Source: Desulfosudaceae bacterium (GTDB lineage Bacteria; Desulfobacterota; Desulfobacteria; Desulfobacterales; Desulfosudaceae). Taken from it: 64,000 bases of DNA. Position 1 is the stretch's first letter; every line of letters begins with the position of its first letter. The stretch covers positions 224,001-288,000 of the forward strand of contig CAXXDV010000003.1 of NCBI GenBank assembly GCA_963674745.2. The letters are read 5' to 3'. The notes beneath the pieces are model-generated. The model had not been told where the DNA came from and did not search any database. It worked only from the letters and a program-made list of their open reading frames with translations. Position numbers and translations under genes: made by a program. Positions 1 through 16,254 of the stretch are shown here, one piece after another.

Positions 1-388
1 GGCCCGCCATTTTCTCCGCCGGCTGGAAGGCGATGTGCCCAAAACCGAGTTTTCCAGCGGCGCACTGCGGCTGCTCAAGGAATACACCTGGCCGGGGAAT
101 GTCCGGGAGCTTTCCAACGCCATCGAGCGAGCCGTCATCCTGTCGCGGGGGACAAACAAGATTACGGCTGAAACGCTCTCGTTTCTGGACGCCAACCGCT
201 CCCAGCCGGCCGCTAAAATCGGTTTTCGACTTCCGCCGGAAGGAATATCTCTGGAAGAACTGGAGATGGATATGGTAAAACAAGCCCTTGAAACATGTCA
301 GAACAACCAGACCGCGGCAGCGAAATTCCTGGGGCTGACCAGGGCCAAGTTCAGGGTTTTGATGAATCAGATGAAAAAGGATGAATAA
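1..388 (+). CDS. sigma54-dependent (NtrC/Fis-family) transcriptional activator, C-terminal part; 5' end lies outside the window
   Basis: YTWPGNVREL-x-N-x-IERA AAA+ motif followed by Fis-type HTH (ALETCQNNQTAAAKFLGLTR). Confidence 0.93.
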   Translation, partial: ARHFLRRLEGDVPKTEFSSGALRLLKEYTWPGNVRELSNAIERAVILSRGTNKITAETLSFLDANRSQPAAKIGFRLPPEGISLEELEMDMVKQALETCQNNQTAAAKFLGLTRAKFRVLMNQMKKDE

Positions 389-2498
389 TCCCGGGCTCAA
401 ACCGGACAATATTTTTATAAAAGGTGCTTGTCATAAGGTAATGAACGGTCGATTTCTCAACATATCCTTGATGGTTTTAGTTCTCCTGATGTTCCTGCTT
501 ATGCCGGGGATATTGCCGGCTGAAGAAGCCGAGCCGTGTGACGGACAGAATGATACCCTGCTGATGTTTGTCGGAGAAGATCTGGAAGTCCTGTCCATTG
601 CCTCCCGGCGCCGGCAGAGTGCCTGGCAGGCACCGGCCGTGGCCCATGTGATTACCCGGGAAGACATCCAGGAGCAGGGGATCCAGACCCTGAGCCATGC
701 TTTGGAAATGGCGCCTGGTTTTTATATGGCCCAGAAAGAGTGGGGCAAACAGCCTTATTTGAGAGGTATCCCCGATTCGGTCCTGTTTCTTTATGACACG
801 GTGCCCATTGGCTCGGATATCAGCAAATCCATCCATCCACTTGACAATGAACTGTCCATTGCCCCGGTCAAGCGCATTGAAATCCTGCGCGGTCCCGGGT
901 CGGTGCTCTGGGGGGCGGACGCCTTTGCCGGTATCGTGAACCTGGTGCCCATGACCGGTAAGGATGTGGACGGGGCGCAGGCCGGGATCATCGGCGGCAG
1001 CCCCAATGGCCAGCGGGCCTTTTATGTCAATGCCGGCCATGACGCAGGTGCCTGGGACGCCTTTTTGTCGATCAGCGGCCGTGAAGGAGAAGAAGGCGAT
1101 GGCGATTACAATCTCGTCCGTTTCTGGAAAGATGATATCACCGCCTACCCCCCTGACGAACGGTATGGTGATCAGCGGCCGGGAGATTCGCACTACCTTG
1201 AACTGTCGGGGAATTTTTCTTATGACGACTGGTTCACGCTTTCAGGCCTGTTTCACGATTATACCCGGAAATTTACCCTGTCGCGGCCGGAAGCGGATAT
1301 CTCTTGGCGCGAGAGCCGGGGGGTACCCTTCGGTTTTATCAAAATGGAGGCGAAAAAGGACCTGGGGTGCGCTTCCGCCCTCCGTTTTACCGGTTCCTAC
1401 AGCCTGTTGAAGCCCGAATACGAGATCATTGACCGGGTCATGAAGCAGAAGGAAAAAACCGTTTACGGTGAAATTATTTATGACCGGTCTTTTATGGCCG
1501 GCCGGGGCCTTTTCACCGGCGGGTTTTCTTACCGGGACAAGCAGGTGGAGGATGCCCCCATCTGGGACGGTTATCTGCCGGATTACCTGGGCGGGGAAAA
1601 TGTCAACCTGGTACCGGGGCTGACGGTGAATGATTATAGTGACGGGTTGTGGTCGGTTTTCGGGCAATACAATCAGAAAGTCGGTAATTTCGATCTCTGG
1701 GCGGGCTTGCGGAACGATGCCCATGACGAATACGGTGATTATCTGAGTTACAATCTCGGTGCTGTCTGGTCTCCTGAATCTCAATGGATGGTTAAGCTGC
1801 TTTACGGGGTGGCCTATCGCACGCCCTTTGCCCGTCAGCTTCTGGAAGAACAACGTCCCGACACCGAGGAAATCAAGACCGTCAATTTTCAGGTGGCCTG
1901 GCGGCCGTCCCGGCAGGTGGGGCTGAGTGTGTGCGGTTTTGTCAGCCGTATCGAGAACCATATTATCGAAGATCCCTATGCCGGTCTTTCCATGCCCAAC
2001 GAACAGGATATCCAGGGGGTGGAAATCGAAGGTCATTTTTCACCGGTCAGCAGCCTTGATTTCGCGGCCAACCTGACCCTGCTGGACAATGACGGCCCGG
2101 ATGAGGTCTATAACTGGAACGACTATTCCTTTGTCCGACCCGATGGAACCGTGGAGAAGCATTACACCGAACTCAAATACCCTTATGACAGCGGGCCGGA
2201 AAGGCTTTTTAATCTCAGCGGGACATGGCGGCCGGTCGAACGGGTGTCCGCCTTTTTGCGTCTGGGTTATTTCGGTCCTCGAGACCTGATATTCCCCCGC
2301 AGCGCGGAAATATGTTCCGTTCCCGGCGTCTGGCTGCTGGATACCAGTGCCACGGTCCGGGATATCGGTTTTCCCGGCCTGGACCTGGAAATTACCGTTC
2401 GCAATCTCCTGGACGAGTCGTACCAGACCCCCGGGACTTACAGCCTCATACAGGGAGATCCCATCACGCTGTGGGTGGAGTTGAGAAAGGGGTTTTAG
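381..2498 (+). CDS. TonB-dependent outer-membrane receptor
   Basis: Signal peptide; plug motifs APAVAHVITREDI and IEILRGPGSVLWGADAFAGIVN; beta-barrel segments ending NLLDESY...F with C-terminal Phe. Overlaps the activator stop; true start may be a later Met. Confidence 0.9.
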   Translation: MNNPGLKPDNIFIKGACHKVMNGRFLNISLMVLVLLMFLLMPGILPAEEAEPCDGQNDTLLMFVGEDLEVLSIASRRRQSAWQAPAVAHVITREDIQEQGIQTLSHALEMAPGFYMAQKEWGKQPYLRGIPDSVLFLYDTVPIGSDISKSIHPLDNELSIAPVKRIEILRGPGSVLWGADAFAGIVNLVPMTGKDVDGAQAGIIGGSPNGQRAFYVNAGHDAGAWDAFLSISGREGEEGDGDYNLVRFWKDDITAYPPDERYGDQRPGDSHYLELSGNFSYDDWFTLSGLFHDYTRKFTLSRPEADISWRESRGVPFGFIKMEAKKDLGCASALRFTGSYSLLKPEYEIIDRVMKQKEKTVYGEIIYDRSFMAGRGLFTGGFSYRDKQVEDAPIWDGYLPDYLGGENVNLVPGLTVNDYSDGLWSVFGQYNQKVGNFDLWAGLRNDAHDEYGDYLSYNLGAVWSPESQWMVKLLYGVAYRTPFARQLLEEQRPDTEEIKTVNFQVAWRPSRQVGLSVCGFVSRIENHIIEDPYAGLSMPNEQDIQGVEIEGHFSPVSSLDFAANLTLLDNDGPDEVYNWNDYSFVRPDGTVEKHYTELKYPYDSGPERLFNLSGTWRPVERVSAFLRLGYFGPRDLIFPRSAEICSVPGVWLLDTSATVRDIGFPGLDLEITVRNLLDESYQTPGTYSLIQGDPITLWVELRKGF

Positions 2499-2556
2499 GT
2501 TCCAGGTTCAGGGTTCAAGGTTCAAGGTTCGGGGTTCGGGGTTCGGGGTTCGGGGT
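2499..2556 (+). repeat. GGTTCRR heptamer microsatellite directly after the stop codon
   Basis: ggttcca ggttcag ggttcaa ggttcaa ggttcgg x4. Confidence 0.85.
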
Positions 2557-2579
2557 GTTGCGGGCCGTTCACCAGGGGT

Positions 2580-2886
2580 GTAGGGGCAGGCCCCCGTGCC
2601 TGCCCAAGGGCAACCACAGGGGGTTGCCCCTACGGGTCGTGGTGGCCGATTATGAACAATGTAGGGGCAGGCCCCCGTGCCTGCCCGGCAAAAGGGCACC
2701 CACAGGGGGGTGCCCCTACGGGTTGTGGTGGCCGATTATGAACAATGTAGGGGCAGGCCCCCGTGCCTGCCCAAGGGCAACCACAGGGGGTTGCCCCTAC
2801 GGGTCGTGGTGGCCGATTATGAACAATGTAGGGGCAGGCCCCCGTGCCTGCCCGGCAAAAGGGCACCCACAGGGGGGTGCCCCTAC
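2580..2886. repeat. Cluster of four inverted REP doublets (GTAG-type REP, BIME/REPIN-like), A-B-A-B order, 167-bp period
   Basis: GTAGGGGCAGGCCCCCGTGCCTGCCC at 2580, 2661, 2747 and 2828, each followed by an inverted REP ending GCCCCTAC; linkers nearly identical. Confidence 0.9.
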
Positions 2887-2982
2887 AATAAAAGGGCATG
2901 GGTTCAAGGTGACATGCCCGAAGGTTGAAATGCTTAGGCCAGGTGTTAGGGTTTAAGGACTTATGTGGCTTCCAGGTGGGGG

Positions 2983-3020
2983 TTGGCTAAATATGACCAG
3001 TATTGGTTAAATTTAGCCAA
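2983..3020. promoter_or_regulatory. AT-rich inverted repeat (operator/enhancer or terminator)
   Basis: ttggctaaat-atgaccag-ta-ttggttaa-atttagccaa followed by a T run. Confidence 0.4.
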
Positions 3021-3394
3021 TTTTTTTGTGCAAAAGCTGCCTTTTTGCTTCCGGAACCTTTACGTTCAAGGGCCGGCGTTATTTTTTTTGATAAGTAGAT
3101 CCGGTTTGGTCAAAAGAGCGCCTGCTGCCGGATTGAGGTCCTATCTGCCGGGCGGTAAACCGCACCTGTTGGTCGTCATCTCCACCAGATAAAACGGTAA
3201 TTGATATTAATACCGCTACATATTGTGGTTGTTGGAAAAGCCGTTTGTTTTTAAAGCGGGTTCACGGGGTTGTTTGAAGCCTGATGACAAAAACGCCGGC
3301 ACGGTCTTTGTATAACCATAAAGAAATTTTTTGTTAAATAAAGATGCGCGTGAAAGGGACTTGCGCACGGATATTGCATCCAAACTGAGTCACT

Positions 3395-4645
3395 ATGGTC
3401 AGCATTAGAAAAACATACATTTTAATCGGGTTTGTCGTCATTTTGTTTGTCGGGGCAATCGGTGTTGCCTTTGCAGATGAAAATGACGTCCTGACGCCGG
3501 AGGAAGCCCTGCTGGCCCTGATTAATGAGGCGCGTGGCAATCCGCTGGAAACGGCTGCTGCCATGGGCATGGACCCGGAGCAGATTCTGGCCGACTTTCC
3601 CGAACTTGAAAATATCCTGACCGATGGGATGCAACCCCTGGCCTTTAACGAAAACCTCGATGAAGCCGCTTATGCCCATACCGGGGACATGTTTGCCAGG
3701 GGCTATTACTCAAGCCTTTCACCGGACGGGCAGGATTATGAGGAACGTATTAATGATGCCGGGTATCCGGCCGTATTGTCCGGAGAGTCCCTCGGCCTGA
3801 TCCTTTTTGCCAATTTTATCAACCCGGAAGAGGCCGCCCGTCTGATCTTTGAATACATGTTTGCCGATGAACTGGATGCTTCGCGAACGGAAAAAAGAAA
3901 TATCCTGGATCCCTGCTTAAGAGAAGTGGGCATCAGCATCCAGGCCGGTACATTATCCCTGGGAAACGGCCGCTGGAATGTTTACCTGGCCACCTGTGAT
4001 TTCGGCTCGCTGATGTCCTGTGCCGAAGGTGAACTTTTCAACCTGATCAATCAGGCCCGGGTGAATCCGCTGGAAATGCTGGCAGCCTATGAAATGGATG
4101 CCGAAGAACTGCTTGACGAATATCCGCACCTGGAGACCTTTTTTTCAGAAGGGGTTGCACCGCTTTGTTTTAATTTAAGCCTGGCGGAAGCGGCCCGGAT
4201 TCATGCGGCCGATATGCTGGAAAACGGTTTTTTTTCCAGTGAGTCTCTGGACGGTCGAACGGTTGAGGATCGTCTCCTCGAGGCTGAATACTCAGAAGAA
4301 GACTTTAGCGCAGATGAGTTGCTCTGGCGCTCCTGCCTTGGCAAGGACGACGATTTGTTAAACGAGCTGGCCGAAAGCAACTATGATCAGATCCGGGTAT
4401 TGATGGGCCGGGTTTTTGAGGGCATGCTGGATGCCGCTTTGAAAACGAACGTGGATGAGGCGAACAACAGCCTGCTGTTTGGCGAGACCTTTGAGGAAAT
4501 GGGTATCGGAATGGCGGCCGGTGTTTGTACGGAATTTGAAAGTATCTGCGGTGACCGCATATTGCTGCTGACCATGGATTTTGGGGCACGTCCGGAAATG
4601 GAAAGTGAACCGGACACGGCCCTGGATACCGAGGATTTGCCGTAA
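3395..4645 (+). CDS. Exported acidic protein with two tandem CAP (SCP-like) domains
   Basis: Signal peptide (AFA-D); two repeats of LINxARxNPLE...FNxxLxEAAxxHxxDM...G[YF][YF]SSxSxDG...E[VM]GI. Confidence 0.85.
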   Translation: MVSIRKTYILIGFVVILFVGAIGVAFADENDVLTPEEALLALINEARGNPLETAAAMGMDPEQILADFPELENILTDGMQPLAFNENLDEAAYAHTGDMFARGYYSSLSPDGQDYEERINDAGYPAVLSGESLGLILFANFINPEEAARLIFEYMFADELDASRTEKRNILDPCLREVGISIQAGTLSLGNGRWNVYLATCDFGSLMSCAEGELFNLINQARVNPLEMLAAYEMDAEELLDEYPHLETFFSEGVAPLCFNLSLAEAARIHAADMLENGFFSSESLDGRTVEDRLLEAEYSEEDFSADELLWRSCLGKDDDLLNELAESNYDQIRVLMGRVFEGMLDAALKTNVDEANNSLLFGETFEEMGIGMAAGVCTEFESICGDRILLLTMDFGARPEMESEPDTALDTEDLP

Positions 4646-4716
4646 AGGCTTAATATTACTGAATACAAACGGGGTCTTGATCCGTTATGGGTAAAAAAAG
4701 CTGTTAAATTAAAAGC

Positions 4717-4745
4717 TTGACAACAGGCGGGTCTTTAGCTATAGA
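4717..4745 (+). promoter_or_regulatory. Near-consensus sigma70 promoter for the Cys-rich exported protein
   Basis: TTGACA-17 nt-TATAGA with AT-rich upstream DNA. Confidence 0.65.
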
Positions 4746-4902
4746 CAGAAAAACAATATCAATCAAGACGATAGAAAGGAGGGGGATAAAAAAATAAAAT
4801 CAAGTTGTTGATGTTGTAAAGTGTATGTAAAGTATGAAGTTGTTGAAAAGTTGTGAAGTTGTAAAATTGATTGTTGTTAAACGAACTGCAAAGGAGAAAA
4901 CA

Positions 4903-6069
4903 ATGAAAAAGATTTTGGTTTTGATGACCGTCGTGGCGACCGCTCTGGTTCTTTCCACCGGCGCTTTTGCCGACCCGTGCTCAAACTGCAAGTGCCAGCT
5001 CAGAAACATTCCCTGTCCTTCAGACACCCAGTTGGGTCCGGCGTCCTGTAATTGGTTTGATTTTGACATCAATGCTACCCAGGCCAATCAGGCTCTCAAC
5101 GTGACTGACGGCTACTGCAACACGGTTGCCGGCGTTGCCAGCACCCTGAATTGCCGTGCCATCCTGCACGTCTGCGACTGTCTGCCGGATCCGACGGTTT
5201 TTATCGCCGGTCTGGATGTTGGTATTCGTATGACCATCCTGGTCGACGGCCAGGCCGGTGACAACGGTGCTTACTGGTCCGACACTGCCGTTGCTCCAGG
5301 AGGGAATGTGTTTGCCGGTATCGGTGCCGGCATCCTGTGGGATAGCGCGTTGACCCAGGCCAATGCCTGTGCCATCCCTTCCCATGGCGCCGGTGTTCCC
5401 GTAGCTCCCGCCGTTTCTTCCGACACATTCGGTCCGGAAACCTACTACCTGTCCGACGGTGTTACCGTAGCTGACCCGCTGGGCTCCACTGCCTGTTCCG
5501 TTCCGGCCGCCAACCGTGCCACCGTTCTGGAAGCCAGCAACATTGGTCCCGGTACGCTGGTCGGTGGTGAAGGCGAATGGTGGTGGATCGATATTCCGCC
5601 GATCCGCGCCGATCCGTCTTTGCTGGCTGCCGGCTCCACCATCCAGGTTCAGATTTGTCTGCTGGATGACGCCGGTACCTCCATCTGCGGCGGCTGCACC
5701 ATCTGCGAATGCGTCATCGACGTAGCCCAGATGTGCTGTGCTTCTGCTGCTCCGACCACAGGTTTGGTCTTCCCGTATTTCGCTTCCAACGCGTCTTACT
5801 GGAGAGGCGTGGCCATCATCAACCCCAGCACCTCTACCGGTACCATTACCATGACCCTGCATGACGTTGCCGGCAACACTGCCACCGCTTCCGGTACAGC
5901 TCCGGCCGGCGGCATGTTCGTCGACTCTCTGGATAACCTGACATGGACCGGCGCTGCCGACACCAACGGCCGCTGCTGGGTATCTGCTACCTGCAACTTC
6001 GGCGCTGCCGAAGGCGCTGCCATGATGGGTTCCGGATCTACAATCAACATGGGTTACATTGTTGACTAA
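4903..6069 (+). CDS. Cys-rich exported protein, candidate surface-layer/structural subunit
   Basis: AAGGAG RBS before ATG 4903; signal peptide MKKILVLM...AFA; 20 Cys and one Lys in the mature chain; C-terminal LVFPYF...YWRGVAIINP beta-domain; strongly biased codon usage; own promoter and terminator. Confidence 0.8.
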   Translation: MKKILVLMTVVATALVLSTGAFADPCSNCKCQLRNIPCPSDTQLGPASCNWFDFDINATQANQALNVTDGYCNTVAGVASTLNCRAILHVCDCLPDPTVFIAGLDVGIRMTILVDGQAGDNGAYWSDTAVAPGGNVFAGIGAGILWDSALTQANACAIPSHGAGVPVAPAVSSDTFGPETYYLSDGVTVADPLGSTACSVPAANRATVLEASNIGPGTLVGGEGEWWWIDIPPIRADPSLLAAGSTIQVQICLLDDAGTSICGGCTICECVIDVAQMCCASAAPTTGLVFPYFASNASYWRGVAIINPSTSTGTITMTLHDVAGNTATASGTAPAGGMFVDSLDNLTWTGAADTNGRCWVSATCNFGAAEGAAMMGSGSTINMGYIVD

Positions 6070-6126
6070 TTGTAGGTACGACCTGTTGTGTTCTGCTTGA
6101 CGGCAGATACGCAGATCTGAAAATCG

Positions 6127-6160
6127 GTGGGGGGTTTGTTTAACAGACCCCCCACTTTTT
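6127..6160 (+). terminator. Rho-independent terminator
   Basis: gtggggggtttgtt...aacagaccccccac hairpin followed by ttttt. Confidence 0.85.
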
Positions 6161-6210
6161 CATTTTACCAGTAAAATCCCACCCACTGATACTTCCGACC
6201 AGGTGACACA

Positions 6211-6882
6211 ATGATAAACAAAAACAAGGTTTTTACATTTCTTTCAATCCTCATGGCCTTTATCGGATTGCTGGCAGGGGCGATTGAGTGTCCGGCCGCA
6301 TTTTACCGGCCGGACGGGACCATTCAGATTTTATCGGAATATTCCGGTATCGATGCCCCAAACCCTTCTGGCACCCGGCACTGGACAGTCATACCGGTTA
6401 CAACCACGGACGGAAAGGTAACTATGGGTTTTTATCTGAAGGACGCTTCCCCGCAGCAGGCGATATGTCAACTGACGTTTGCCGCAACCGGATCAGACCG
6501 CATTCAATGGCAGGGGATTGAAAATATCAGCCCCAAAATATCTGATGACGGCTTCTTACTCGTCCCGGGTTTCCCTGCGCCCTGCGATGTGTTGCCGGTG
6601 GGTGATATCTCCGAACAAGGCCTTTACCAGGATAGAAATGAAGCAGGCGGCAGCGTGTTTGTTAAATCTTACCAGGTAACCACCAGACCCGTTACGCCGG
6701 CTGAAGCGGTGGACAGCGGCTGGATTAATGACACCATGCCGGATGTGGGTGCTCTGGTGATGGTCACGGCCACGGACAAAAGAGGCGAAACGGTTGTCCG
6801 GCAGTTATGGCCGGTCAATGGTGCCTGGTGGATTTATGAAGAGACGCCCATCAGGCGTTCCTGGCGGATAGAAAATAAATGA
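6211..6882 (+). CDS. Secreted hypothetical protein
   Basis: Signal-like N-terminus, 223 aa, abuts the next gene; no recognised family. Confidence 0.75.
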   Translation: MINKNKVFTFLSILMAFIGLLAGAIECPAAFYRPDGTIQILSEYSGIDAPNPSGTRHWTVIPVTTTDGKVTMGFYLKDASPQQAICQLTFAATGSDRIQWQGIENISPKISDDGFLLVPGFPAPCDVLPVGDISEQGLYQDRNEAGGSVFVKSYQVTTRPVTPAEAVDSGWINDTMPDVGALVMVTATDKRGETVVRQLWPVNGAWWIYEETPIRRSWRIENK

Positions 6883-9386
6883 TGAGTTTATTAAAGATGA
6901 AAAAAATCAAGTTGCGCTGTCCGGTGTTTTCGGCCGCCCCTTTTAAAATCGTACCGGGGGCCACATTTTTATTTCTGGTTTTGTTTTTTGCGGTCACCGG
7001 TGCTCAGGCATACCAGGCCGCCGCCATTCCCTGGTCGGGATACTGGTGGCCGGTAACTCGCGGCGGACTGGCTACCGGCAGCGATTACCGGGGGCACCCG
7101 GCACCCCTGGAAAAATACCATCTTTACACGGACGGTGTCACCACCGGTTATGCCCTGACCCAGTACCTGGATATCGCCTATGATCCCTACGCCTCGGCCT
7201 GGTATGGATTCTGCCTGCACTGGGCCCGGGCGGCCTGTTTTGAGCCCGGCGATATTCTGCCCTCTTCGAACGATAATATTATTTTCCGGGTAGGGGATAA
7301 AAAAGGGCTCCTGACCCTGGCCCACCACAAAGACATTGTCGAGACGGACAACGGTTCCTATCCCGAATCCTTTCATTACTGGCTTTTGCATTATATCAAG
7401 GACCAGAAAAAAGCCTTTACCGCCGATCTTTTTGCCGGTACTGAGGTCTGGTCCTACCCGATTTACAAATACGAGATGCAGATCACCGGCGGGGGCGCCA
7501 CCCAGTCGGTGTATGTAAAAATCTATTATGCCGATGATTTTGTCTTCCCTGACTTTATGGGAACACAGGAACGGTCCACTTTCTACACCTACGATCTGTT
7601 TCTGGACGGAAGCGGGGCCATCACCGGCGGTCAGTGGACCGGCAACAGCATTACCGACCATCCGGAAAACATGAGTATCCCGCTGGGGGTGGGTGAGGGC
7701 TTTCCCGGACTGGATTATCAACAGGTCGTTAAACTGGCCACATCGAAAGATGATTTTCTGGAAGACGGCAGCCGGCCGGTTGAAATCGGCCCGGGAACCT
7801 ACAATCTGATCCTGCTTGATGAAGATGCTTACCGGTTTCCAGTTCAAGTCGACGATGTCATTTCCCTGCGGATAGACAAGCAGTCCGGAAGCGCGCAGGA
7901 TATCAGTGCGGTGATGATGGATGGCAATGGTGCCGAGGTTTTTCGTAACGATATTACCGAGGACAATCCCGTCGATCAATTGTTTACCGCAACAACACCG
8001 CCCTACACCGTTTATCTTACCCAGGCCGAAGCCTACACCACGGACCCGAACATTTACACCCTGGCCCTGGATCTTCAAAAGCCGTTCAGCCAGGAAATTC
8101 CCTACATTCCCAAATCAGGTGGCTGGTCCGGGTTTGCGCTGACCAATCCGACCGACACCACGGTAAAAAATGTGATTCTGGTCAGCAGCGATGCCGACGG
8201 CGTGCCGATCCAGACACTGGAGGGGCCGCTTTCGTTGGCGCCGGGAGAGAAAAAACGATTTTTCTTCAGCGATTATGATGTGCCCATGCATGAACTGATT
8301 GATACCGAGCGGCTGACCCTGATGGCGGATGGATCTGTGGTGCTGCTTAATCTGGTCGGAGAAGGAGATGATTTTTTGGCCACTTTTGTACAGGGAAAGG
8401 CCCGGGGGAATCGGTTGGTCCTTCCGGATACCGCCCCTGCCATGATGCCGGGTGTGCGCATGTTCGGAGGGGTTAAAAATGAACGTTTCCAGGAAACCGC
8501 GGTAAAGATCAGCCTTTATACGGCGGCAGGTGCGCTGGCCGACGAAGTGATCCAGAATGTGGCGCCTCGCGGGTACCTGACCATTAAACCGGGTTCTGAT
8601 CCGTTTTATAGTATGCCGTCATCCGGTTGGATGGAAATTCAGGCGGGCGCTGAGGCCAGCCTGAACGGGTTTCAATACCTGTCCAACGCTTCGGGCGTGG
8701 AAACCCTTTTTGCCCTTCCGGTAAATTCGGCAACAAAAATTGTGCCCCACATCGCGAAAAAAGGGTACTGGGTAACGTCGGTTACCCTGATCAACCCGAA
8801 TAACACAGACAATGCTGTTAACCTGCACCTGGCTTTGGCCGGTGGAGACACAAGCGGCGATTACGATATTGTGCTGGCCCCTTATGAAAAACGGGTGTTG
8901 GAGATTCAGGATCTGTTCGGAAAATCAACGGGTGATCCGCTTTATCATTCGATTCTGGAAATTACCGGTGAACAACCGTTGGCCGGTTATTATGCTTACA
9001 ACCGGCCGGATATCGGCGATTATGCCGCCTTCCCCCTGCTGGATGAGAGCGATTTTGCCGAAGTGCTGGACATGCCGCATTACGCGGGAAACAACGGCGG
9101 CTTCTGGTGGACCGGTGTCGTGGTCTGTAACCCCTCTACCATTTCTCAAACGGTACGCGTGGAACCGTATAATGCTGAAGGCGAGCTGATACAGGGGGCG
9201 GTCAAAACGCTCGATCTCAACGCCGGTGCCTATGACGTCATGGACGTGCAGTTGTATTTTGGTGGAACCGCGCCTGAGATATCTTTTATCAAACTTCGCG
9301 CCACCGGGGGGGCAGGCAGTATCGGCGGTTTTTATCTGTATGGCAACCGCAGAAACAGAAATATTCTCAGCGGCGCCAATATGTGA
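6879..9386 (+). CDS. Exported GP42/TGase_elicitor-like (transglutaminase-fold) protein with four C-terminal beta-sandwich repeats
   Basis: PWSGYWWP, LEKY, WYGFCLHWARAACFEP, GDKKGLLT, EVWSYPIYKY, YTYDLFLD...GGQW...HP match the motif order of oomycete GP42-type transglutaminases; repeats IPYIP..WSGFALTNP, LVLPD.., IVPHI..WVTSVTLINP, MPHYA..WWTGVVVCNP. Confidence 0.75.
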   Translation: MMSLLKMKKIKLRCPVFSAAPFKIVPGATFLFLVLFFAVTGAQAYQAAAIPWSGYWWPVTRGGLATGSDYRGHPAPLEKYHLYTDGVTTGYALTQYLDIAYDPYASAWYGFCLHWARAACFEPGDILPSSNDNIIFRVGDKKGLLTLAHHKDIVETDNGSYPESFHYWLLHYIKDQKKAFTADLFAGTEVWSYPIYKYEMQITGGGATQSVYVKIYYADDFVFPDFMGTQERSTFYTYDLFLDGSGAITGGQWTGNSITDHPENMSIPLGVGEGFPGLDYQQVVKLATSKDDFLEDGSRPVEIGPGTYNLILLDEDAYRFPVQVDDVISLRIDKQSGSAQDISAVMMDGNGAEVFRNDITEDNPVDQLFTATTPPYTVYLTQAEAYTTDPNIYTLALDLQKPFSQEIPYIPKSGGWSGFALTNPTDTTVKNVILVSSDADGVPIQTLEGPLSLAPGEKKRFFFSDYDVPMHELIDTERLTLMADGSVVLLNLVGEGDDFLATFVQGKARGNRLVLPDTAPAMMPGVRMFGGVKNERFQETAVKISLYTAAGALADEVIQNVAPRGYLTIKPGSDPFYSMPSSGWMEIQAGAEASLNGFQYLSNASGVETLFALPVNSATKIVPHIAKKGYWVTSVTLINPNNTDNAVNLHLALAGGDTSGDYDIVLAPYEKRVLEIQDLFGKSTGDPLYHSILEITGEQPLAGYYAYNRPDIGDYAAFPLLDESDFAEVLDMPHYAGNNGGFWWTGVVVCNPSTISQTVRVEPYNAEGELIQGAVKTLDLNAGAYDVMDVQLYFGGTAPEISFIKLRATGGAGSIGGFYLYGNRRNRNILSGANM

Positions 9387-9392
9387 TAAGAC

Positions 9393-9824
9393 CTATTCGT
9401 CGATAAGGGTGGCTTCCGGATGAATATTCACATACCAGGCGCCTTTTTCCTTGACCCATTGCTGGTTATGGGGCGCGCGTTTTAATTCATATCCCATAAA
9501 CATAATGTCGATCCTGACCCTTACTTTGGCTTTATCACCTTCGGGAAGCACGTTTATTTCATCTACCTCAAAGCCGGTGTAAATCGCCTTGCGGGTCTGG
9601 TGGATAAATTGGTCCCGTTGAACCTTTTCCCGGGATGAGGCGTTTAAAAATGAATAGGCGGTATTCCATTGCTGGTCTACCTGGGCCTGCATGTAGCCTT
9701 TGACACGGTCTTCGAGGGAGGCTTTCTTGTCGGCGCTTCTGGACGATAATGCGGCGCATCCGGTTATCAGGAACAGCATCAGGCAGACAGAAAGGGCCGA
9801 CAGTGTTATTCTGGTTTTTTTCAC
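9393..9824 (-). CDS. Small lipoprotein (possible NTF2-like fold)
   Basis: GAGGAG RBS with GTG start; lipobox LITG-C; ends WVKEKGAWYV. Confidence 0.8.
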   Translation of the reverse strand: MKKTRITLSALSVCLMLFLITGCAALSSRSADKKASLEDRVKGYMQAQVDQQWNTAYSFLNASSREKVQRDQFIHQTRKAIYTGFEVDEINVLPEGDKAKVRVRIDIMFMGYELKRAPHNQQWVKEKGAWYVNIHPEATLIDE

Positions 9825-9836
9825 GGTACTTCTCCT

Positions 9837-10949
9837 CTATTGATTGTGTTGTTTCTGGTATTGCTCCATAAATTCTTCCGGACTCATCTGCAGGCCATTT
9901 ATCAGTTCCTGTTGTGCTTTTGCTTCTTTTCTCTCAAGCACTTTCTTGTGCTTCTCAACCAGAACGGCCATCTCCTGATCGTCGGCAAATGAGCGATCAA
10001 GGGTAATGGGTTTGCTTTTGCTGATCAGCATTTTTCCGTTACTGTCAAGCATGACCGTCAGCCTGCCCAGGGCCATGCCTTTGGGGCCGGAATAGAGTAA
10101 AACAGGGCCCTCTGAAGGTGTTTCATTTATATCCGTGTCATGGTTGGCATCACTCGAACCGCATCCAGGTGAATGCATTTTGCCGGATTCGGCACTTTTC
10201 GCAAGGAATTCTCTGCAACCGGCGGTAATGGACACGTCGATACCTTTGACCGACTTGAAAAGGCTCAGCATTTCGGAAGTGCTGAGTTGAGACAACAAAA
10301 TGACCAGGTCAGCCTGCTTTTTGACTTCCGGCACCAGTTTGTTCAGGGCTTCTGCGGGCGGAGTTGCCTGCAGTTGTTTTTTCTGCTCTTGTGTCAGGAA
10401 ATCGGGCAGTTTGTCCGGATCAACAATGCCAAGAACGGCCATTTTAATGCCGCCGACGTCTTTGATGATGTATTTACGAGCCCAGGAAGGGCTGCTGCCG
10501 TTGTATTTCAGGTTGGAGGCAATAAAGGGAAAGGATATGGCAGACTGGTTTTTTTCGAGGATTTCAGGTCCGAACTGTAGTTCCAGAACACCAAAATTCA
10601 AAGCATCGTACTTCATTGATGTCATGGCCTTTAACATGAATTCGGATGTGTCTTGACGAAGATCCAGTTCTTTACTCTTCTCACTGAAGGCTTCTCCACA
10701 ATCCAGCAGCAGCACCGGAAGGCCTTCGTCCCGAATGGCCGCGATTGCCTGGGCACGGCGGGCAAGACCGCCCGCGAAATTGTTCCCTCAGGTATGAATC
10801 GGGTCAAGGTTTCCCCTGGCCGCTCCGGTGAAAAGAATGGTGGCGCGTTTTTCTTCTCCGGCAAAAGCGGGTGGCAGGGAAAGAACGCTGCACAGAATGA
10901 ATATGGACAATGAAAGAATGATCGGTTTCATATAAATCTTTTGAAACAT
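9837..10949 (-). CDS. Exported UshA-like (5'-nucleotidase N-domain fold) selenoprotein, 370 aa, Sec at codon 54
   Basis: AAGGAG RBS with ATG 10949, signal peptide, then ILFTGAARGNLDPIHT-UGA(10790-10788)-GNNFAGGLARR...LLLDCGE in the same frame as the tracked 9837..10715 ORF; SECIS-like hairpin follows. Confidence 0.85.
10751..10787 (-). promoter_or_regulatory. Bacterial SECIS-like hairpin
   Basis: mRNA after UGA: GGGAAC AAUUUC GCGGGCG-GUCU-UGCCCGC C GUGCCC; upper stem starts 13 nt after UGA with a G-initiated apical loop; lower stem GGGAAC/GUGCCC. Confidence 0.75.
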
Positions 10950-11491: not shown

Positions 11492-12283
11492 ATGAAAACA
11501 CCGGTTGATTCAAATCAAAGGGATTGGCGTTATCTGACGGATCTGATCCTTCAGAAAGCCAGGGCCGGGCTGCGGGCTGAAGCTTCCCGGGGCTACCTGG
11601 GGGTGTTGTGGTGGGTGATCGAACCGGTCATGTATATGACGGTGTTTTATGTTGCTTTTGCCCACCTGTTGAAACGGGGGGATGAGAATTTTGTCATATT
11701 TCTGCTGACCGGCCTGATCGTATGGAAATGGTTCCACGCCACCATTAATACCGGCTCTAAGAGCCTTATGGCCAGCGCGGGGCTGATGAACCAGATCTAT
11801 GTGCCCAAGATTATTTTTCCATTGACCAATGTCGCTGTAAACACCTTTAAATTTTTTCTTATTCTGCTTATTCTGCTGGTCGTTCTTCAGTTTACGCCCG
11901 CCCGGGTGACATGGGCCTGGTTGTTGCTGCCGGTGCTGGTCTTCACGCAACTGTTGCTGATTGCCGCCCTGAGCAGTTTGCTGGCGGCTGTTATGCCTTT
12001 TTTCCCGGATTTAAAAGTCATTATCGACAATGTCCTGATGATGCTCCTCTTTCTTTCCGGCATTTTTTTTGATATCGCCAAACTGCCCGAAAAGATACAG
12101 GGGTATTTGTTGCTTAATCCCATGGCGGCGCTTATTGCCATGTACCGAAAAATGCTGCTCAAGGGAATGCCGCCGGACTGGGGACAGGTTTTATGGATAC
12201 TGGTGCTTTCCACGATCATTATGATGCTGGCGGTATGGGTTTTACGTCGGTATGACCGGATTTATCCCAAAATTATTTTTTAA
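11492..12283 (+). CDS. wzm: Glycan ABC exporter permease
   Basis: GYLGVLWWVIEP, multiple TM helices, LLNPMA motif of ABC-2 permeases. Confidence 0.92.
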   Translation: MKTPVDSNQRDWRYLTDLILQKARAGLRAEASRGYLGVLWWVIEPVMYMTVFYVAFAHLLKRGDENFVIFLLTGLIVWKWFHATINTGSKSLMASAGLMNQIYVPKIIFPLTNVAVNTFKFFLILLILLVVLQFTPARVTWAWLLLPVLVFTQLLLIAALSSLLAAVMPFFPDLKVIIDNVLMMLLFLSGIFFDIAKLPEKIQGYLLLNPMAALIAMYRKMLLKGMPPDWGQVLWILVLSTIIMMLAVWVLRRYDRIYPKIIF

Positions 12284-12294
12284 GTGAAAGATTG

Positions 12295-13029
12295 ATGACT
12301 TCACATATGTCGCCAGAACCGACGATTGTCGACGATACCGTACTGTTGAGACTGGAGAATGTCGGGCTGTATTACAGCCGGCGCCAGGGGTTTTTGAAAC
12401 GGTCGCTTTTCTGGGCGCTTAAGGATGTCTCTTTTGATCTGTGTGCCGGCGAAACCCTGGGGGTAATCGGAAAGAACGGGGTCGGCAAGAGCACGTTGCT
12501 GCGGGTACTGGCCGGTATCATCGCCCCGGACACCGGAAAGGTGGTGATCCATCGTCCGGGATTGAGAATTTCACTCATTTCCCTGGGGGCCGGTTTTGTG
12601 CCGTTTTTAAGCGGTCGTGAGAATGCCATTTTAAATGGTATGATGCTGGGTGCCACCAGGAAAGAAATTCTTTCACGCATGGACGATATCCTGGATTTTT
12701 CAGAGTTGGGCGATTTTTTTGATGAGCCGGTCAACACGTATTCCACCGGTATGCGCGCCCGCCTGGGATTTTCAGTTGCCCTTCACCTTGACCCGGACGT
12801 GATCCTTTTGGACGAGGTGCTGGGGGTGGGCGATGAGTCTTTCCGGAAAAAATCAACCGAAGCCATGAAACAGCGGATCAAATCCGATAAGACGGTCGTG
12901 ATGGTGTCCCACCACGTACCGATTTTAAGGGAACTTTGCGACCGTATTGTCTGGATCGAGGCCGGTAAAACCAGGGCCCAGGGTGCCGCAACGGAGGTTC
13001 TGGATGCCTATCTTGAAAATATTGGATAA
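12295..13029 (+). CDS. wzt: Glycan ABC exporter ATPase without C-terminal carbohydrate-binding domain
   Basis: FWALKDVSF, GKNGVGKST, YSTGMRARLGF, LLDEVLGVGD; only about 245 aa. Confidence 0.93.
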   Translation: MTSHMSPEPTIVDDTVLLRLENVGLYYSRRQGFLKRSLFWALKDVSFDLCAGETLGVIGKNGVGKSTLLRVLAGIIAPDTGKVVIHRPGLRISLISLGAGFVPFLSGRENAILNGMMLGATRKEILSRMDDILDFSELGDFFDEPVNTYSTGMRARLGFSVALHLDPDVILLDEVLGVGDESFRKKSTEAMKQRIKSDKTVVMVSHHVPILRELCDRIVWIEAGKTRAQGAATEVLDAYLENIG

Positions 13030-13159: not shown

Positions 13160-15331
13160 ATGTTGAACAAGGCGGATAATGAATCGAATAATACGCCGGC
13201 GGCGGAATTGACCCGCATGGAACAAAATTCATTGAAACGAAAATTTATCAATGCGGTCAAACTCCGGCTTGCCCCGTATCCCCGTGTTTTTGCATGGGTA
13301 TTACGAGCCTATATTTTTGTCATAGAGACATCAAGGCGATTTGGTCGCAATATAGGGTATCTGGACCTGTCGTCAGCTGTTTCGGGTCATACCAGGCAGC
13401 ATCTCACGGGCAATAAAGGCCTGGTCCAGGTCACCGCCACGGAAGATGGCAATATGGTGATGCCCCTGCCGGCCTATGAAGCCCAATACGAAGAGCGGCA
13501 GACGTTCGGCATGCAGACGGATATCAAGCTCATTGCCTATTACCTGCCCCAGTTTCACGCCATACCTGAAAATGACGAATGGTGGGGCGAAGGCTTCACC
13601 GAATGGCACAACACGCGTAAAGCCAAACCCGCCTTTGCCGGACACTATCAGCCGCGGGAACCCCATGATGATATCGGCTATTACGACTTGAGTGATGTCG
13701 AAAGCATCAGAAAACAGGTCGATCTGGCCAAAAGTTACGGCATATATGGTTTCTGTTTTTACCATTACTGGTTTCACGGCACGCGGCTGCTGGGAAAACC
13801 GGTCGATCTGCTGTTGAACAATCCCGATCTGGACATGCCCTTCTGCCTCTGCTGGGCCAATGAAACATGGAGCCGGAAATGGGATGGAAAAGACGAGCAG
13901 ATTCTGATCAAGCAGACCTTTTCCGCCGAAGATGACCTGGAATTTATCGAATTTCTGGCCCCTTATTTCCGTGATCACCGGTACATCCGGGTCAACGGAA
14001 GGGCTGTGCTGCTTGTCTATCGCGCCAGTAAGCTGCCCAATCCTTTGAAAACCACCAATCGCTGGCGCAAATGGTGCTGGGACAACGGGCTTGGAAAAAT
14101 CCATCTGGTGGCGGTCTGTCATGGAGAGGTGTTTCCCCATATCCCCCTGGAAAAGATCGGGTTTGACGCTTATGCCGCCTTTCCCCCGCACAGTTTCCCC
14201 TGTCAGCATCTGTCCGAAGAGCATGAACTGTTCGACGGTGGTTACCGTTTTGACTATGCTTCAGGTGTGGATTATTTCTGCCCGGAAAATAACGGGACCC
14301 GGATTTATGAAGGCTGTATGCTCGGCTGGGATAACACGGCCCGGATGGGGACGCGCGGTGTGACCATGTTTCAGAATTTTTCGGTTAAAACATATTATAC
14401 CTGGCTTCGTCGCATCATTGAGTATACGCGAAACAGATTCCCTGAAGACGAACGCCTGGTGTTTATCAATGCCTGGAACGAATGGGCCGAAGGCACCTAC
14501 CTGGAACCGGACAAACGCTACGGTTATGTTTATCTGAATACAACGGCCAAGGCACTGTATGATTATCCGCTGAGTGACCCGGATGAATCCGGTGAAAATC
14601 ATGATCATGATTCTGCGGAAAAGTATACACAGGAATACAAGTGGTTGAAATACATGATCGAAAACACCGATGATCATTCGTTTTCCATTATAAACCGGTT
14701 TATTGACAACGACGCGGATGTACTGGAATTCGGTTCCGCGGCCGGCTATTTCACCCGCTACTTGACCGAGGAACGCAATGCTGCGGTGGATATTGTGGAA
14801 ATAGACAGCGATTGCGCCGCCAAGGCGGCTGTATACGCTCGTGATTCCTACATCGGGGACATAGAGCAGTATGGATGGAAAGACGCTTTTTCGGAAAAGC
14901 GTTATGACTATATTCTCTTTTCCGATGTACTTGAACATCTGCGGGATCCCTGGCGGACGCTGAAGGAATCCGTGGGCATGCTCAAGCCCGGTGGCCGGAT
15001 CATTTTATCCGTGCCCAACATTGCCCATACGCAGATCCTGTCCAGCTTATATAACAATGATTTTTCCTATTCCGACGTCGGTATTATGGACAGGACCCAC
15101 CTTCGTTTTTTTACCGAAGCCACCCTTCGGGAATTGATTGATGAGGCCGGCCTGAACGCCGGTGAGGTGGTTCCGGTAGAGGCCCCGGTGTTGCCGAAAA
15201 ACTGCGGCACACGCTGGAATAAAATATATGTGCCGGCCAGGCTGTGGGAAGCACTCGCCTCCAAAGAACACGCCAATGCCATTCAATTTGTGGCATGTTG
15301 CCAGAAGGAAGATCACGATGGTGACAAATAA
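13160..15331 (+). CDS. WbsX/GH99-like domain fused to class I SAM methyltransferase
   Basis: IAYYLPQFH..ENDEWWGEGFTEW, CWANETW, INAWNEWAEGTYLEPD; C-terminal VLEFGSAAGY, DVLEHLRDP, DRTHLRFFT. Confidence 0.9.
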   Translation: MLNKADNESNNTPAAELTRMEQNSLKRKFINAVKLRLAPYPRVFAWVLRAYIFVIETSRRFGRNIGYLDLSSAVSGHTRQHLTGNKGLVQVTATEDGNMVMPLPAYEAQYEERQTFGMQTDIKLIAYYLPQFHAIPENDEWWGEGFTEWHNTRKAKPAFAGHYQPREPHDDIGYYDLSDVESIRKQVDLAKSYGIYGFCFYHYWFHGTRLLGKPVDLLLNNPDLDMPFCLCWANETWSRKWDGKDEQILIKQTFSAEDDLEFIEFLAPYFRDHRYIRVNGRAVLLVYRASKLPNPLKTTNRWRKWCWDNGLGKIHLVAVCHGEVFPHIPLEKIGFDAYAAFPPHSFPCQHLSEEHELFDGGYRFDYASGVDYFCPENNGTRIYEGCMLGWDNTARMGTRGVTMFQNFSVKTYYTWLRRIIEYTRNRFPEDERLVFINAWNEWAEGTYLEPDKRYGYVYLNTTAKALYDYPLSDPDESGENHDHDSAEKYTQEYKWLKYMIENTDDHSFSIINRFIDNDADVLEFGSAAGYFTRYLTEERNAAVDIVEIDSDCAAKAAVYARDSYIGDIEQYGWKDAFSEKRYDYILFSDVLEHLRDPWRTLKESVGMLKPGGRIILSVPNIAHTQILSSLYNNDFSYSDVGIMDRTHLRFFTEATLRELIDEAGLNAGEVVPVEAPVLPKNCGTRWNKIYVPARLWEALASKEHANAIQFVACCQKEDHDGDK

Positions 15332-16115: not shown

Positions 16116-16132
16116 CCGTTCCTGAAAATGTT

Positions 16133-16158
16133 GTAGGGGCAGGCCCCCGTGCCTGCCC
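16133..16158 (+). repeat. Single GTAG-type REP
   Basis: gtaggggcaggcccccgtgcctgccc, identical to the 2580 copies. Confidence 0.85.
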
Positions 16159-16254
16159 GGCAGAAGGAGTCAGGGGCTGGGGGTCAAATCAGCTCGTGAA
16201 ATATCCGGGTTAAAGCAGAGCAACCGTTTTGGCGAAAGCGCCGGGCGGGCAAGG

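What the first reader, a model, noticed from the sequence alone, without database searches (positions are those of the whole stretch)
3395..9386. Candidate undescribed surface-layer assembly system: Cys-rich subunit plus GP42-like transglutaminase sharing a docking domain
Seen: four co-oriented exported proteins. The 4903-6069 protein has its own near-consensus promoter, terminator and biased codons, and ends in a beta-domain (P-x-F...W-x-G-V-A-I-I-N-P). The 6879-9386 protein has four tandem copies of that domain behind an N-terminal domain whose motif order matches oomycete GP42/TGase_elicitor transglutaminases. Known: GP42 is a Ca-dependent cysteine transglutaminase; bacterial homologues are mostly uncharacterised. 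Inference: an abundant structural subunit (S-layer, sheath or fibre) and an enzyme that co-assembles through the shared domain and cross-links or processes it, with CAP-CAP and the 223-aa protein as accessories.
Basis: partly seen in the sequence, partly recalled or inferred. Interest (0 to 1): 0.82.

Follow-up and report, generated by a model that had tools for sequence, protein, structure and literature searches.

The report
Secretion-linked surface coat gene cassette
A sediment sulfate-reducer relative carries a conserved, unnamed gene set that probably builds a protein coat on the cell surface, made of one heavily transcribed cysteine-rich protein and a transglutaminase-like enzyme that share a sugar-binding-type domain.

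Summary
Genes 3395-9386 encode four exported proteins. These are a CAP-CAP protein, a Cys-rich 388-aa protein with its own promoter-like site and strong terminator, a 223-aa protein, and an 835-aa protein.

The 835-aa protein has a GP42 transglutaminase fold (Z 23.4). A collagenase-type beta-sandwich and four copies of the domain that ends the Cys-rich protein follow it.

New findings:
- The shared domain belongs to the ASRT/TM1070 ("ASRAH") superfamily, which is predicted to bind sugars. At least five other proteins of this genome carry it.
- The cassette is larger than reported. A lipoprotein and a 292-aa protein (9393-10715, minus strand) are also conserved.
- The genome's only complete type II secretion operon, a sigma-54 two-component system and a TonB receptor lie directly upstream. 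Glycan clusters flank the whole locus.
- This layout recurs in several Desulfobacterota families. Twelve of 14 genomes with the enzyme also have the subunit.
- GP42's Cys-His motif is not conserved here.
- Metatranscriptome contigs of relatives hint at high subunit expression.

Best reading (about 0.5): a secreted, glycan-anchored surface layer with a resident modifying enzyme. No experiment supports this yet.

The parts
381..2498 (+). TonB-dependent receptor (Plug + barrel). It is the last gene of the upstream block: T2SS operon, substrate-binding protein, histidine kinase, sigma-54 response regulator. That block lies before the window start, at G000:C3:209199-224388.
   Evidence: Pfam. Orthologues at 49-52% identity sit in the same position in L018 and L019. 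Upstream block.
3395..4645 (+). Exported protein with two CAP/SCP domains.
   Evidence: Pfam CAP E 9.7e-15, 2 stretches. CAP genes lie upstream of the subunit gene in L001, L003, L004, L018, L019 and L031.
4717..4745 (+). Promoter-like site, TTGACA-17-TATAGA.
   Evidence: Read. The scan does not list it. Similar TTGACA-N17-TAYAGW sites occur in L001, L024, L025 and L026.
4774..4786 (+). Shine-Dalgarno-like purine element (gaaaggaggggga) in the long leader, about 120 nt before the start codon.
   Evidence: The octamer RGGRGGKG lies at -90 to -174 in 8 of 10 subunit leaders. It occurs in 107 of 3777 (2.8%) proxy genes of this genome in the -250..-40 interval.
4903..6069 (+). Main subunit candidate. 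388 aa, 365 aa when mature, pI 4.05, 20 Cys, 1 Lys, all-beta. No Pfam or NCBIfam family.
5749..6066 (+). C-terminal ASRAH (ASRT/TM1070-like) beta-sandwich of the subunit.
   Evidence: VIA Z 12.5 to 1nc7_A and Z 9.6 to 2ii7_A. Trp300 and Asn307 are conserved, matching the superfamily hallmarks given in PMC2739507.
6126..6165 (+). Intrinsic terminator after the subunit gene.
   Evidence: 14-pair stem, 8 G-C pairs, T run.
6211..6882 (+). 223-aa exported protein of no known family. Its stop overlaps the start of the next gene.
   Evidence: Homologues occur in 10 of 18 related loci.
7005..7751 (+). GP42-fold (papain-like) catalytic domain of the 835-aa protein (aa 43-291). The Cys112 codon is at 7212-7214.
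7752..8084 (+). Beta-sandwich of the pre-peptidase-C-terminal / collagenase collagen-binding type (aa 292-402).
   Evidence: VIA Z 11-12 to 3jqw_A, 5sv5 and 1nqd_A.
8085..9374 (+). Four tandem ASRAH domains (aa 403-502, 531-611, 616-718, 725-832).
   Evidence: Copy 4 gives Z 12.3 to 1nc7_A. Four copies are detected in the orthologues in L018 and L031.
9393..9824 (-). 143-aa lipoprotein (lipobox LITGC) with weak NTF2-like hits. Conserved member of the cassette.
   Evidence: BLASTP hits in 11 related loci. Pfam MecA_N E 0.0056 and DUF4440 E 0.012, both below cut-off.
9837..10715 (-). 292-aa conserved protein of no family. In one clade its homologue is fused to a multihaem cytochrome c domain.
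   Evidence: BLASTP hits with E 1e-35 to 1e-16 in L019, L004, L018, L030, L031 and L003. Weaker hits to the cytochrome-bearing ORFs of L022, L023, L024, L026, L027 and L029. Cytochrome_C554 hits.
11492..13029 (+). ABC-2 permease and ATPase that open a large surface-glycan cluster (context only).
   Evidence: Glycan genes also follow the cassette in L018, L019 and L031.

Best explanation
This is a type II secretion-linked surface-coat system. The acidic, Cys-rich all-beta protein (4903-6069) is the major cargo. It is transcribed from its own promoter with a long stabilising leader and its own terminator, exported by Sec, and moved across the outer membrane by the adjacent type II secretion system. 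It then forms a surface layer: an S-layer-like coat, sheath or matrix.

Its C-terminal ASRAH beta-sandwich anchors it to a surface glycan, oligomerises it, or does both. The 835-aa protein carries four copies of the same module. That places its GP42-fold catalytic domain on the same glycan or layer, where Cys112 forms an acyl-enzyme and either cross-links or trims the subunit. A nearly invariant loop glutamine (Gln43) is a candidate acyl donor. The CAP-CAP protein, the 223-aa protein, the lipoprotein and the 292-aa protein are accessory factors of unknown role.

Shown: the gene content, the folds, the shared domain, the synteny, the co-occurrence and the secretion-system linkage.
Inferred: surface location, abundance, glycan binding, lattice formation, and that the enzyme acts on the subunit.
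For: - Cassette synteny. A subunit homologue lies next to the enzyme gene in 14 of 18 related loci. Three of the other four (L021, L022, L029) are cut by contig ends.
- Genome-level co-occurrence. Twelve of the 14 genomes with a true enzyme match also have a subunit match, one genome has only a subunit match, and 386 of the 401 sampled have neither.
- Secretion linkage. The only locus in this genome with GspK, GspL and GspM (strong GspD match only here) lies directly upstream. The block T2SS, binding protein, kinase, sigma-54 regulator, TonB receptor, CAP, subunit is collinear in G361 and G390. T2SS genes abut the subunit gene in G326, G350 and G374.
- Published precedent. [quoted passage not shown]
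- Shared anchor-type domain. It has the ASRT/TM1070 fold and hallmark residues. Secreted forms are reported as dyads or tetrads and are predicted to bind surface sugars (PMC2739507). Glycan clusters flank the locus here and follow the cassette in L018, L019 and L031.
- A second protein of this genome (PKD repeats) ends in two subunit-type copies at 42-46% identity. S-layer-associated proteins share an anchor in the same way.
- Different rates of change. The enzyme is 60-75% identical among its best relatives. Subunits of the collinear G361 and G390 loci are 27-28% identical to this one and carry about 200 extra residues.
- Expression hints. The leader carries a conserved Shine-Dalgarno-like element.
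- Composition. Mature pI is 4.05 and the protein is rich in Ala, Gly, Thr and Ser.
Against: - No protein-level, localisation or lattice data exist.
- The tool itself warns that contig depths cannot rank genes. They also come from relatives in a single run.
- Codon usage gives no expression signal.
- Twenty Cys is unusual for S-layer proteins (recalled general knowledge).
- GP42's Cys-His motif is absent. The residue after Cys112 is Ala, Gly or Leu in 31 of 37 homologues, so the chemistry could be proteolysis or something else.
- No invariant Lys exists in the subunit. Lys30 is present in 72 of 139 representatives.
- Since only this locus has GspK/L/M and a strong GspD match, it may be a general secretion system and not a dedicated one.
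- The role of the conserved TonB receptor is unexplained.
- CAP was not found in the fetched stretches of one clade (L024, L026).
Confidence: 0.5

Rival explanations
1. The products are secreted but form no ordered layer. The subunit is an abundant adhesin or biofilm-matrix protein, held on exopolysaccharide by its ASRAH domain. The enzyme remodels the matrix.
For: The evidence is the same as for the main reading: secretion linkage, glycan context and expression hints. The only weak sequence tie to a characterised protein is to Slr4, which is both an S-layer and a major biofilm-matrix protein (abstract and passages of PMC7821379).
Against: Nothing in the sequence separates a lattice from a matrix. 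The tie to Slr4 rests on one subunit homologue's C-domain (1 of 54 domain copies at E 2.3e-6). It falls below the cut-off for the full-length protein.
Confidence: 0.2
2. The GP42-fold protein is a maturation or release protease (or an amidase) for secreted cargo, not a cross-linker. It cuts the subunit, for instance between the Cys-rich domain and the ASRAH domain.
For: The fold is papain-like, and peptidases make up much of that superfamily (passages of PMC10318531). GP42's special Cys-His arrangement is not conserved, while His166, Asp183, Asp225 and His261 are invariant in 37 of 37. The domain that follows is of the pre-peptidase C-terminal type. The subunit has no invariant Lys.
Against: The closest solved relative by far is a transglutaminase (Z 23.4). 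A nearly invariant Gln sits in a low-confidence loop of the subunit: 119 of 139 representatives, with pLDDT under 50 at residues 41-47.
Confidence: 0.15
3. The Cys-rich protein is a secreted binder of thiophilic metals, or a redox protein. It is either recaptured through the adjacent TonB receptor or linked to extracellular electron transfer.
For: It has 20 Cys with CxC, CC and CxxCxxCxC motifs. The TonB receptor is conserved next to the cassette in three loci. In one clade a multihaem cytochrome domain is fused to a cassette protein.
Against: The motif cysteines vary: C91 and C93 occur in 89 of 139 representatives, C268 in 86, and C270 and C278 in 74. In the two other loci that keep the TonB receptor (L018, L019), the subunits lack the CxC, CC and most of the CxxCxxCxC motif cysteines. 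The signal peptide is Sec-type, and the clade with the cytochrome lacks the TonB receptor. Conserved core cysteines fit disulfides.
Confidence: 0.08

Closest known systems
GP42 transglutaminase of Phytophthora sojae (Pfam TGase_elicitor PF16683, PDB 3TW5)
   Same: The fold matches over aa 43-291: Z 23.4, rmsd 2.5 over 246 residues, 23% identity. The Pfam score is above the gathering score. The shared motifs are PWSGYWWP, W-x-G-x-C and DHP. Cys112 aligns with the residue that is Ser in the crystallised chain. I take that residue to be the mutated nucleophile, which is an inference.
   Different: GP42's His directly after the Cys (the 'CH' motif, passages of PMC10318531) is absent. The protein here is bacterial, is fused to a collagenase-type beta-sandwich and four ASRAH domains, and is embedded in a secretion-linked cassette. 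Its activity is untested.
ASRT / TM1070 'ASRAH' superfamily (De Souza, Iyer and Aravind 2009, PMC2739507), including the secreted amidase-linked tetrads of Chloroflexi and the actinobacterial lipoprotein family
   Same: Eight-stranded beta-sandwich with Z 12.3-12.5 to TM1070. [quoted passage not shown] The enzyme and four paralogues have the tetrad arrangement. The proteins are secreted and sit in a glycan context.
   Different: Sequence similarity is borderline: the profile of 55 copies gives E 0.01 to 2ii7, and Pfam ASRT gives E 0.0027 for one subunit. The His and Cys of the ASRT ligand cleft are not kept, and a Pro-His or Pro-Tyr motif precedes the Trp instead. The partners are new: a GP42-fold enzyme, a Cys-rich subunit, and PKD, beta-helix and alpha/beta-hydrolase proteins.
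Slr4 S-layer protein of Pseudoalteromonas tunicata with its upstream dedicated T2SS (PMC7821379, PMC11094555)
   Same: It is an abundant secreted surface protein that had no detectable domains when first described. A T2SS operon lies immediately upstream. One subunit homologue's C-domain matches Pfam Slr4 positions 265-344 at E 2.3e-6.
   Different: There is no whole-protein homology. The window's subunit and 7 of the other 8 full-length subunits tested give no Slr4 hit. No transglutaminase-like partner was mentioned in the passages I read.
Shared cell-surface anchoring modules of S-layer systems (SLH, CWB2), and sortase-type transpeptidases such as PorU of the type IX system
   Same: The functional analogy is one module shared by the main layer protein and its associated proteins, plus a Cys acyl-transfer enzyme acting on cargo that carries a C-terminal beta-sandwich. 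The SLH and CWB2 roles come from passages of PMC7821379. The PorU and sortase comparison is recalled, not tested.
   Different: The folds and families are unrelated, and the host is a Gram-negative Desulfobacterota. This is an analogy only.

Membership tests
TGase_elicitor / GP42 (PF16683) | Match to the family HMM above the gathering score | tested here: met
   46.2 bits against a cut-off of 25, E 3.5e-12. Orthologues score 59-61 bits.
TGase_elicitor / GP42 (PF16683) | GP42 three-dimensional fold | tested here: met
   Foldseek E 1.2e-12, prob 1.00. VIA Z 23.4, rmsd 2.5, 246 residues aligned. The model has pLDDT 89.
TGase_elicitor / GP42 (PF16683) | Nucleophile Cys at the start of the core helix | tested here: met
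   Cys112 is invariant in 37 of 37, lies at the start of helix 112-121, and aligns with the Ser in the GISHAW stretch of 3tw5.
TGase_elicitor / GP42 (PF16683) | His immediately after the Cys ('CH' motif), paired with Asp or Asn | tested here: not met
   The +1 residue is Ala 14, Gly 11, Leu 6, and never His among the six commonest residues shown. The window protein has C-L-H. The motif is taken from passages of PMC10318531. The primary paper is not held.
TGase_elicitor / GP42 (PF16683) | Ca-dependent protein cross-linking activity | not testable with these tools
   This needs an enzyme assay.
ASRAH superfamily (ASRT, TM1070) | Eight-stranded beta-sandwich of TM1070 topology | tested here: met
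   Subunit aa 281-388: Z 12.5, rmsd 2.7, 103 residues aligned. Enzyme aa 723-835: Z 12.3.
ASRAH superfamily (ASRT, TM1070) | [quoted passage not shown] | tested here: met
   Trp300 and Asn307 are invariant in A1. Asn is the only nearly invariant column among the 55 copies. W631/N639 and W743/N751 are invariant in the enzyme family. The features are defined in PMC2739507.
ASRAH superfamily (ASRT, TM1070) | Significant sequence-profile match | tested here: inconclusive
   The top PDB hit of profile A3 is 2ii7 at E 0.01. Pfam ASRT gives E 0.034 in 1 of 55 copies and E 0.0027 for one full subunit, all below the cut-off. DUF5719 matches 12 of 55 copies, best E 7e-4, also below the cut-off.
ASRAH superfamily (ASRT, TM1070) | Sugar or small-molecule binding | not testable with these tools
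   This is itself only a prediction in PMC2739507.
Slr4 S-layer family (PF19526) | Match to the family HMM above the gathering score over the protein | tested here: not met
   The window subunit has no hit. One of the 9 full-length subunits tested reaches 23.3 bits against a cut-off of 25, over model positions 265-343 only. None of the 38 relatives of that subunit carries the family in the precomputed annotation.
S-layer proteins (functional class) | Most abundant envelope protein, forming a lattice outside the outer membrane | not testable with these tools
   There are only hints: the metatranscriptome contig depths, the gene's own promoter, leader element and terminator, and the adjacent T2SS.
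CAP / SCP superfamily (PF00188), for 3395-4645 | Match to the family HMM above the gathering score | tested here: met
   55.9 bits against a cut-off of 21.1, two stretches.

The most novel reading that the evidence does not exclude
A group of Desulfobacterota builds an outer protein coat whose subunits are joined covalently outside the cell. A dedicated extracellular GP42-type acyl-transferase, parked on the same surface glycan through a four-domain lectin-like tetrad, would link the conserved loop Gln43 to an amine of a neighbouring subunit or of the glycan. This would be a Gram-negative, secretion-system-fed counterpart of sortase-built pili, and the first physiological role for bacterial GP42 homologues.
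Probability: 0.2. Interest if true: 0.8.

Novelty: new variant of a known kind. Interest (0 to 1): 0.62.

Why it matters
Neither the subunit family nor the accessory proteins have a name, a Pfam model or a paper that my searches could find. The subunit family has at least 291 clusters at 50% identity with E below 1e-30. The relatives that carry names are all hypothetical proteins from MAGs labelled Syntrophales, Desulfobacterales or Deltaproteobacteria. These groups are important in anoxic sediments and in syntrophy.

If the reading is right, four things follow:
- It identifies the main surface protein of these organisms, which matters for phage, grazing and partner contacts.
- It gives bacterial GP42 homologues a role.
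- It adds a new extracellular use of the ASRT-type domain as a shared anchor.
- It shows what the only T2SS of such genomes mainly exports.

All four points can be tested with an isolate or by heterologous expression.

Tried and rejected
A tetramer of the subunit's C-domain and an enzyme-subunit pair could therefore not be tested.
- The primary GP42 structure paper (PMC3234954) is not held. A search for GP42 with Cys290 found nothing.
- The ESM Atlas gave no usable hit for the 223-aa protein.
- Pfam and NCBIfam gave nothing significant for the subunit, the 223-aa protein, the lipoprotein or the 292-aa protein. The PGA_cap hit (E 0.092) and the NTF2-like hits are below cut-off.
- The subunit's N-domain has no clear structural relative. 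The best matches are Gram-positive pilin shaft domains at Z 5-5.8, which is within the noise range the tool describes. The Foldseek arrestin rows have TM about 0.13. I do not claim a pilin fold.
- Codon usage as an expression proxy failed.
- A sigma-54 promoter was sought upstream of the subunit gene in 10 leaders because of the adjacent activator. The regular expression found none.
- A cable-bacteria link was considered. The search 'cable bacteria' plus 'transglutaminase' returned 0 papers, and the named relatives are Syntrophales or Desulfobacterales MAGs.
- The literature search for S-layer / Desulfobacterota / type II secretion gave nothing relevant among the 12 papers listed of 19.
- Earlier scan notes by sequence returned nothing.
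- In the metatranscriptome, the parts of the stretch without cover (for example 7647-9500) say nothing.

Full report
**What is in the window**

Four ORFs on the plus strand carry N-terminal hydrophobic signal-like segments.
- 3395-4645 has two CAP/SCP domains (Pfam E 9.7e-15).
- 4903-6069 encodes a 388-aa protein. The longer ORF from 4834 is not the gene. The RBS aaaggag precedes 4903, and all 20 aligned homologues start MKK.
- 6211-6882 encodes a 223-aa protein. It has no family in Pfam or NCBIfam, and the protein atlas gave no usable hit.
- 6879-9386 encodes an 835-aa protein, and its start overlaps the previous stop.
- The mature 365-aa subunit has pI 4.05, 20 Cys and a single Lys.

**The enzyme**

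The AlphaFold model, built from 37 sequences, has pLDDT 89 and pTM 0.83.
- Residues 43-291 match the GP42 transglutaminase of Phytophthora sojae. Foldseek gives E 1.2e-12. VIA-align gives Z 23.4, rmsd 2.5 over 246 residues and 23% identity. Pfam TGase_elicitor scores 46.2 bits against a cut-off of 25.
- Cys112 is invariant in 37 of 37 homologues. It aligns with the Ser of the crystallised chain, which I take to be the mutated nucleophile.
- A review of papain-like enzymes, of which I read passages only, says that GP42 is unusual because its His follows the Cys directly. Here the +1 residue is Ala, Gly or Leu in 31 of 37. His166, Asp183, Asp225 and His261 are invariant. The catalytic arrangement is therefore not GP42's, and the chemistry is open.
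- Residues 292-402 are a beta-sandwich of the collagenase collagen-binding or pre-peptidase C-terminal type (Z 11-12).
- Residues 403-832 are four copies of one domain.

**The shared domain**

A profile made only from the C-termini of the 20 subunit homologues finds the enzyme at E 2.1e-9 among 14,157 ORFs of the genome.

The same profile also finds five other proteins of this genome:
- a PKD-repeat protein that ends in two subunit-type copies, at 42-46% identity;
- three tandem genes, each with four copies;
- a 770-aa protein with four copies.

Structurally the domain is the TM1070 / Anabaena sensory rhodopsin transducer fold. The subunit copy gives Z 12.5 and 9.6, and enzyme copy 4 gives Z 12.3. 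I read De Souza, Iyer and Aravind 2009 in parts 1 and 2 of 3. [quoted passage not shown] They report secreted forms as dyads or tetrads, note that TM1070 is a tetramer, and predict sugar binding.

Sequence-level support is only borderline. The profile of 55 copies gives E 0.01 to 2ii7. Pfam DUF5719 matches 12 of 55 copies and Pfam ASRT 1 of 55, all below cut-off.

**The subunit family**

The word-indexed search found 21 proteins. A full HMM search with a wider alignment found 3222 representatives at E 1e-3 or better, 907 at 1e-10 and 291 at 1e-30, many of them full length. There are two length classes, of about 360-430 aa and about 550-650 aa. The weaker part of the list will include proteins that share only the C-domain.

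Among 139 near-full-length representatives:
- the median Cys count is 16, with a range of 8-31;
- a core is conserved: C29 95%, C156 90%, C265 86%, C198 84%;
- the motif cysteines (CxC, CC, CxxCxxCxC) are present in only 53-66%;
- Gln43 is kept in 119 of 139, and lies in a loop that the model predicts with pLDDT under 50.

The subunit model as a whole has pLDDT 75. Its N-domain has no convincing structural relative.

**Conservation of the neighbourhood**

Eighteen related loci carry an enzyme homologue. Four came from MAG contigs. Fourteen came from a survey of 401 genomes of the phylum.

| Cassette member | Loci with a homologue |
|---|---|
| Subunit, beside the enzyme gene | 14 of 18 |
| 223-aa protein | 10 of 18 |
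| CAP gene, upstream | 6 of 18 |
| 143-aa lipoprotein (window 9393-9824, minus strand) | 11 |
| 292-aa protein (window 9837-10715, minus strand) | 6 strong, plus weaker matches |

- Of the four loci without a subunit, L021, L022 and L029 are cut by contig ends, and L030 has another gene order.
- In L003 and L004 a same-sized ORF sits where the 223-aa gene should be, but sequence search does not detect it.
- The weaker 292-aa matches are to ORFs that carry a multihaem cytochrome domain in one clade.

At genome level, 15 of 401 genomes match the enzyme profile. One of these matches only the repeat part. Thirteen of 401 match the subunit profile, and 12 genomes have both. Seven of the positive genomes belong to one genus-level group, so these counts are not independent.

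**Secretion system and flanks**

Directly upstream of the window lies a complete type II secretion operon: E, F, pseudopilins, K, L, M and the secretin. A binding protein, a histidine kinase and a sigma-54 response regulator follow it, and then the TonB receptor at 381-2498. In this genome, GspK, L and M are found only here. The only other GspD-like hit is weak.

The same order recurs in G361 and G390. In G326, G350 and G374, T2SS genes abut the subunit gene. In G123 a GspE lies downstream.

[quoted passage not shown] Glycan genes flank the locus here: GDP-mannose dehydratase upstream, and an ABC-transporter-type cluster with sulfotransferases from 11.5 kb onwards. Glycan genes also follow the cassette in L018, L019 and L031.

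**Expression signals**

- The terminator after the subunit gene is strong.
- The promoter-like site is TTGACA-17-TATAGA. It has similar counterparts in relatives, but the consensus scan did not list it.
- The leader of about 150 nt carries a Shine-Dalgarno-like element far from the start codon. It is found in 8 of 10 subunit leaders, against 2.8% of proxy genes in this genome. Three of the ten leaders are close kin.
- Such upstream Shine-Dalgarno-like mRNA stabilisers are known from Bacillus thuringiensis cry genes. That point is recalled and was not checked here.
- In one marine-sediment metatranscriptome, contigs 88-96% identical to the window have word depth 39-123 over the leader and subunit gene. 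The depth is 2-5 over the neighbouring genes. The tool warns that contig depth is a poor measure of expression, so this is only a hint.
- Codon usage gives no signal.

**Interpretation**

The best-supported reading is a secretion-linked surface coat. It would consist of an abundant, fast-evolving, disulfide-rich subunit with a lectin-like or oligomerising C-domain. A well-conserved Cys enzyme would be held on the same surface by a tetrad of that domain, and would modify the subunit.

Two things remain inference: whether the coat is a lattice or a matrix, and whether the enzyme cross-links or cuts. The metal or redox reading is weak, because the motif cysteines are dispensable in the loci that keep the TonB receptor. 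I found no paper on this system. The searches were those.

Noticed in passing
window 4806-4890: The subunit leader contains repeated GTTGT / GAAGTTGT(A/G)AAA units. An RNA contig from a relative carries an extra 16-nt unit inserted after 4851, so the repeat number varies between strains.
   Followed up: partly
G000:C1:2629575-2634618 (L007-L009), minus strand: Three tandem paralogous genes of 498-555 aa. Each has an InlB B-repeat-like N-domain and four ASRAH copies, and the called ORFs show no obvious signal peptide.
   Followed up: partly
G000:C1:713962-716274 (L011), minus strand: A 770-aa protein with three N-terminal repeats of roughly 105 aa (SASDLAG-W-AH ... SASGWEGWDR) followed by four ASRAH copies.
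   Followed up: no
G000:C3:724310-726271 (L013): An exported protein with three K319L-like PKD domains. It ends in two copies of the subunit-type ASRAH domain (FPYFxS...YWRGI..N), 42-46% identical to the subunit's. It may be a second protein displayed on the same structure.
   Followed up: partly
L024:3582-4700, L026:3701-4837, L022:5971-7149: In one clade the homologue of the window's 292-aa protein carries a C-terminal multihaem cytochrome c domain (Cytochrome_C554/C7). It sits between the enzyme gene and the homologue of the 223-aa protein.
   Followed up: partly
L004:3700-5535 and L004:16397-20428; L022:2120-5116: Further ASRAH-tetrad proteins flank the cassette in other genomes. One has an alpha/beta-hydrolase (DUF676/PGAP1-like) domain. 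Another has a right-handed beta-helix plus PKD domains.
   Followed up: no
window 13160-25419: The downstream glycan cluster encodes a WbsX glycosyltransferase fused to a methyltransferase, two sulfotransferase-family proteins, a TylF-type O-methyltransferase and a WecA-like initiating transferase. This suggests a methylated, sulfated surface glycan.
   Followed up: no
window 2225-3192: Two ORFs of 243 and 75 aa between the TonB receptor and the CAP gene have no family, have Arg/Pro-rich low-complexity translations, and have no homologue in the related loci. They are probably not genes.
   Followed up: partly
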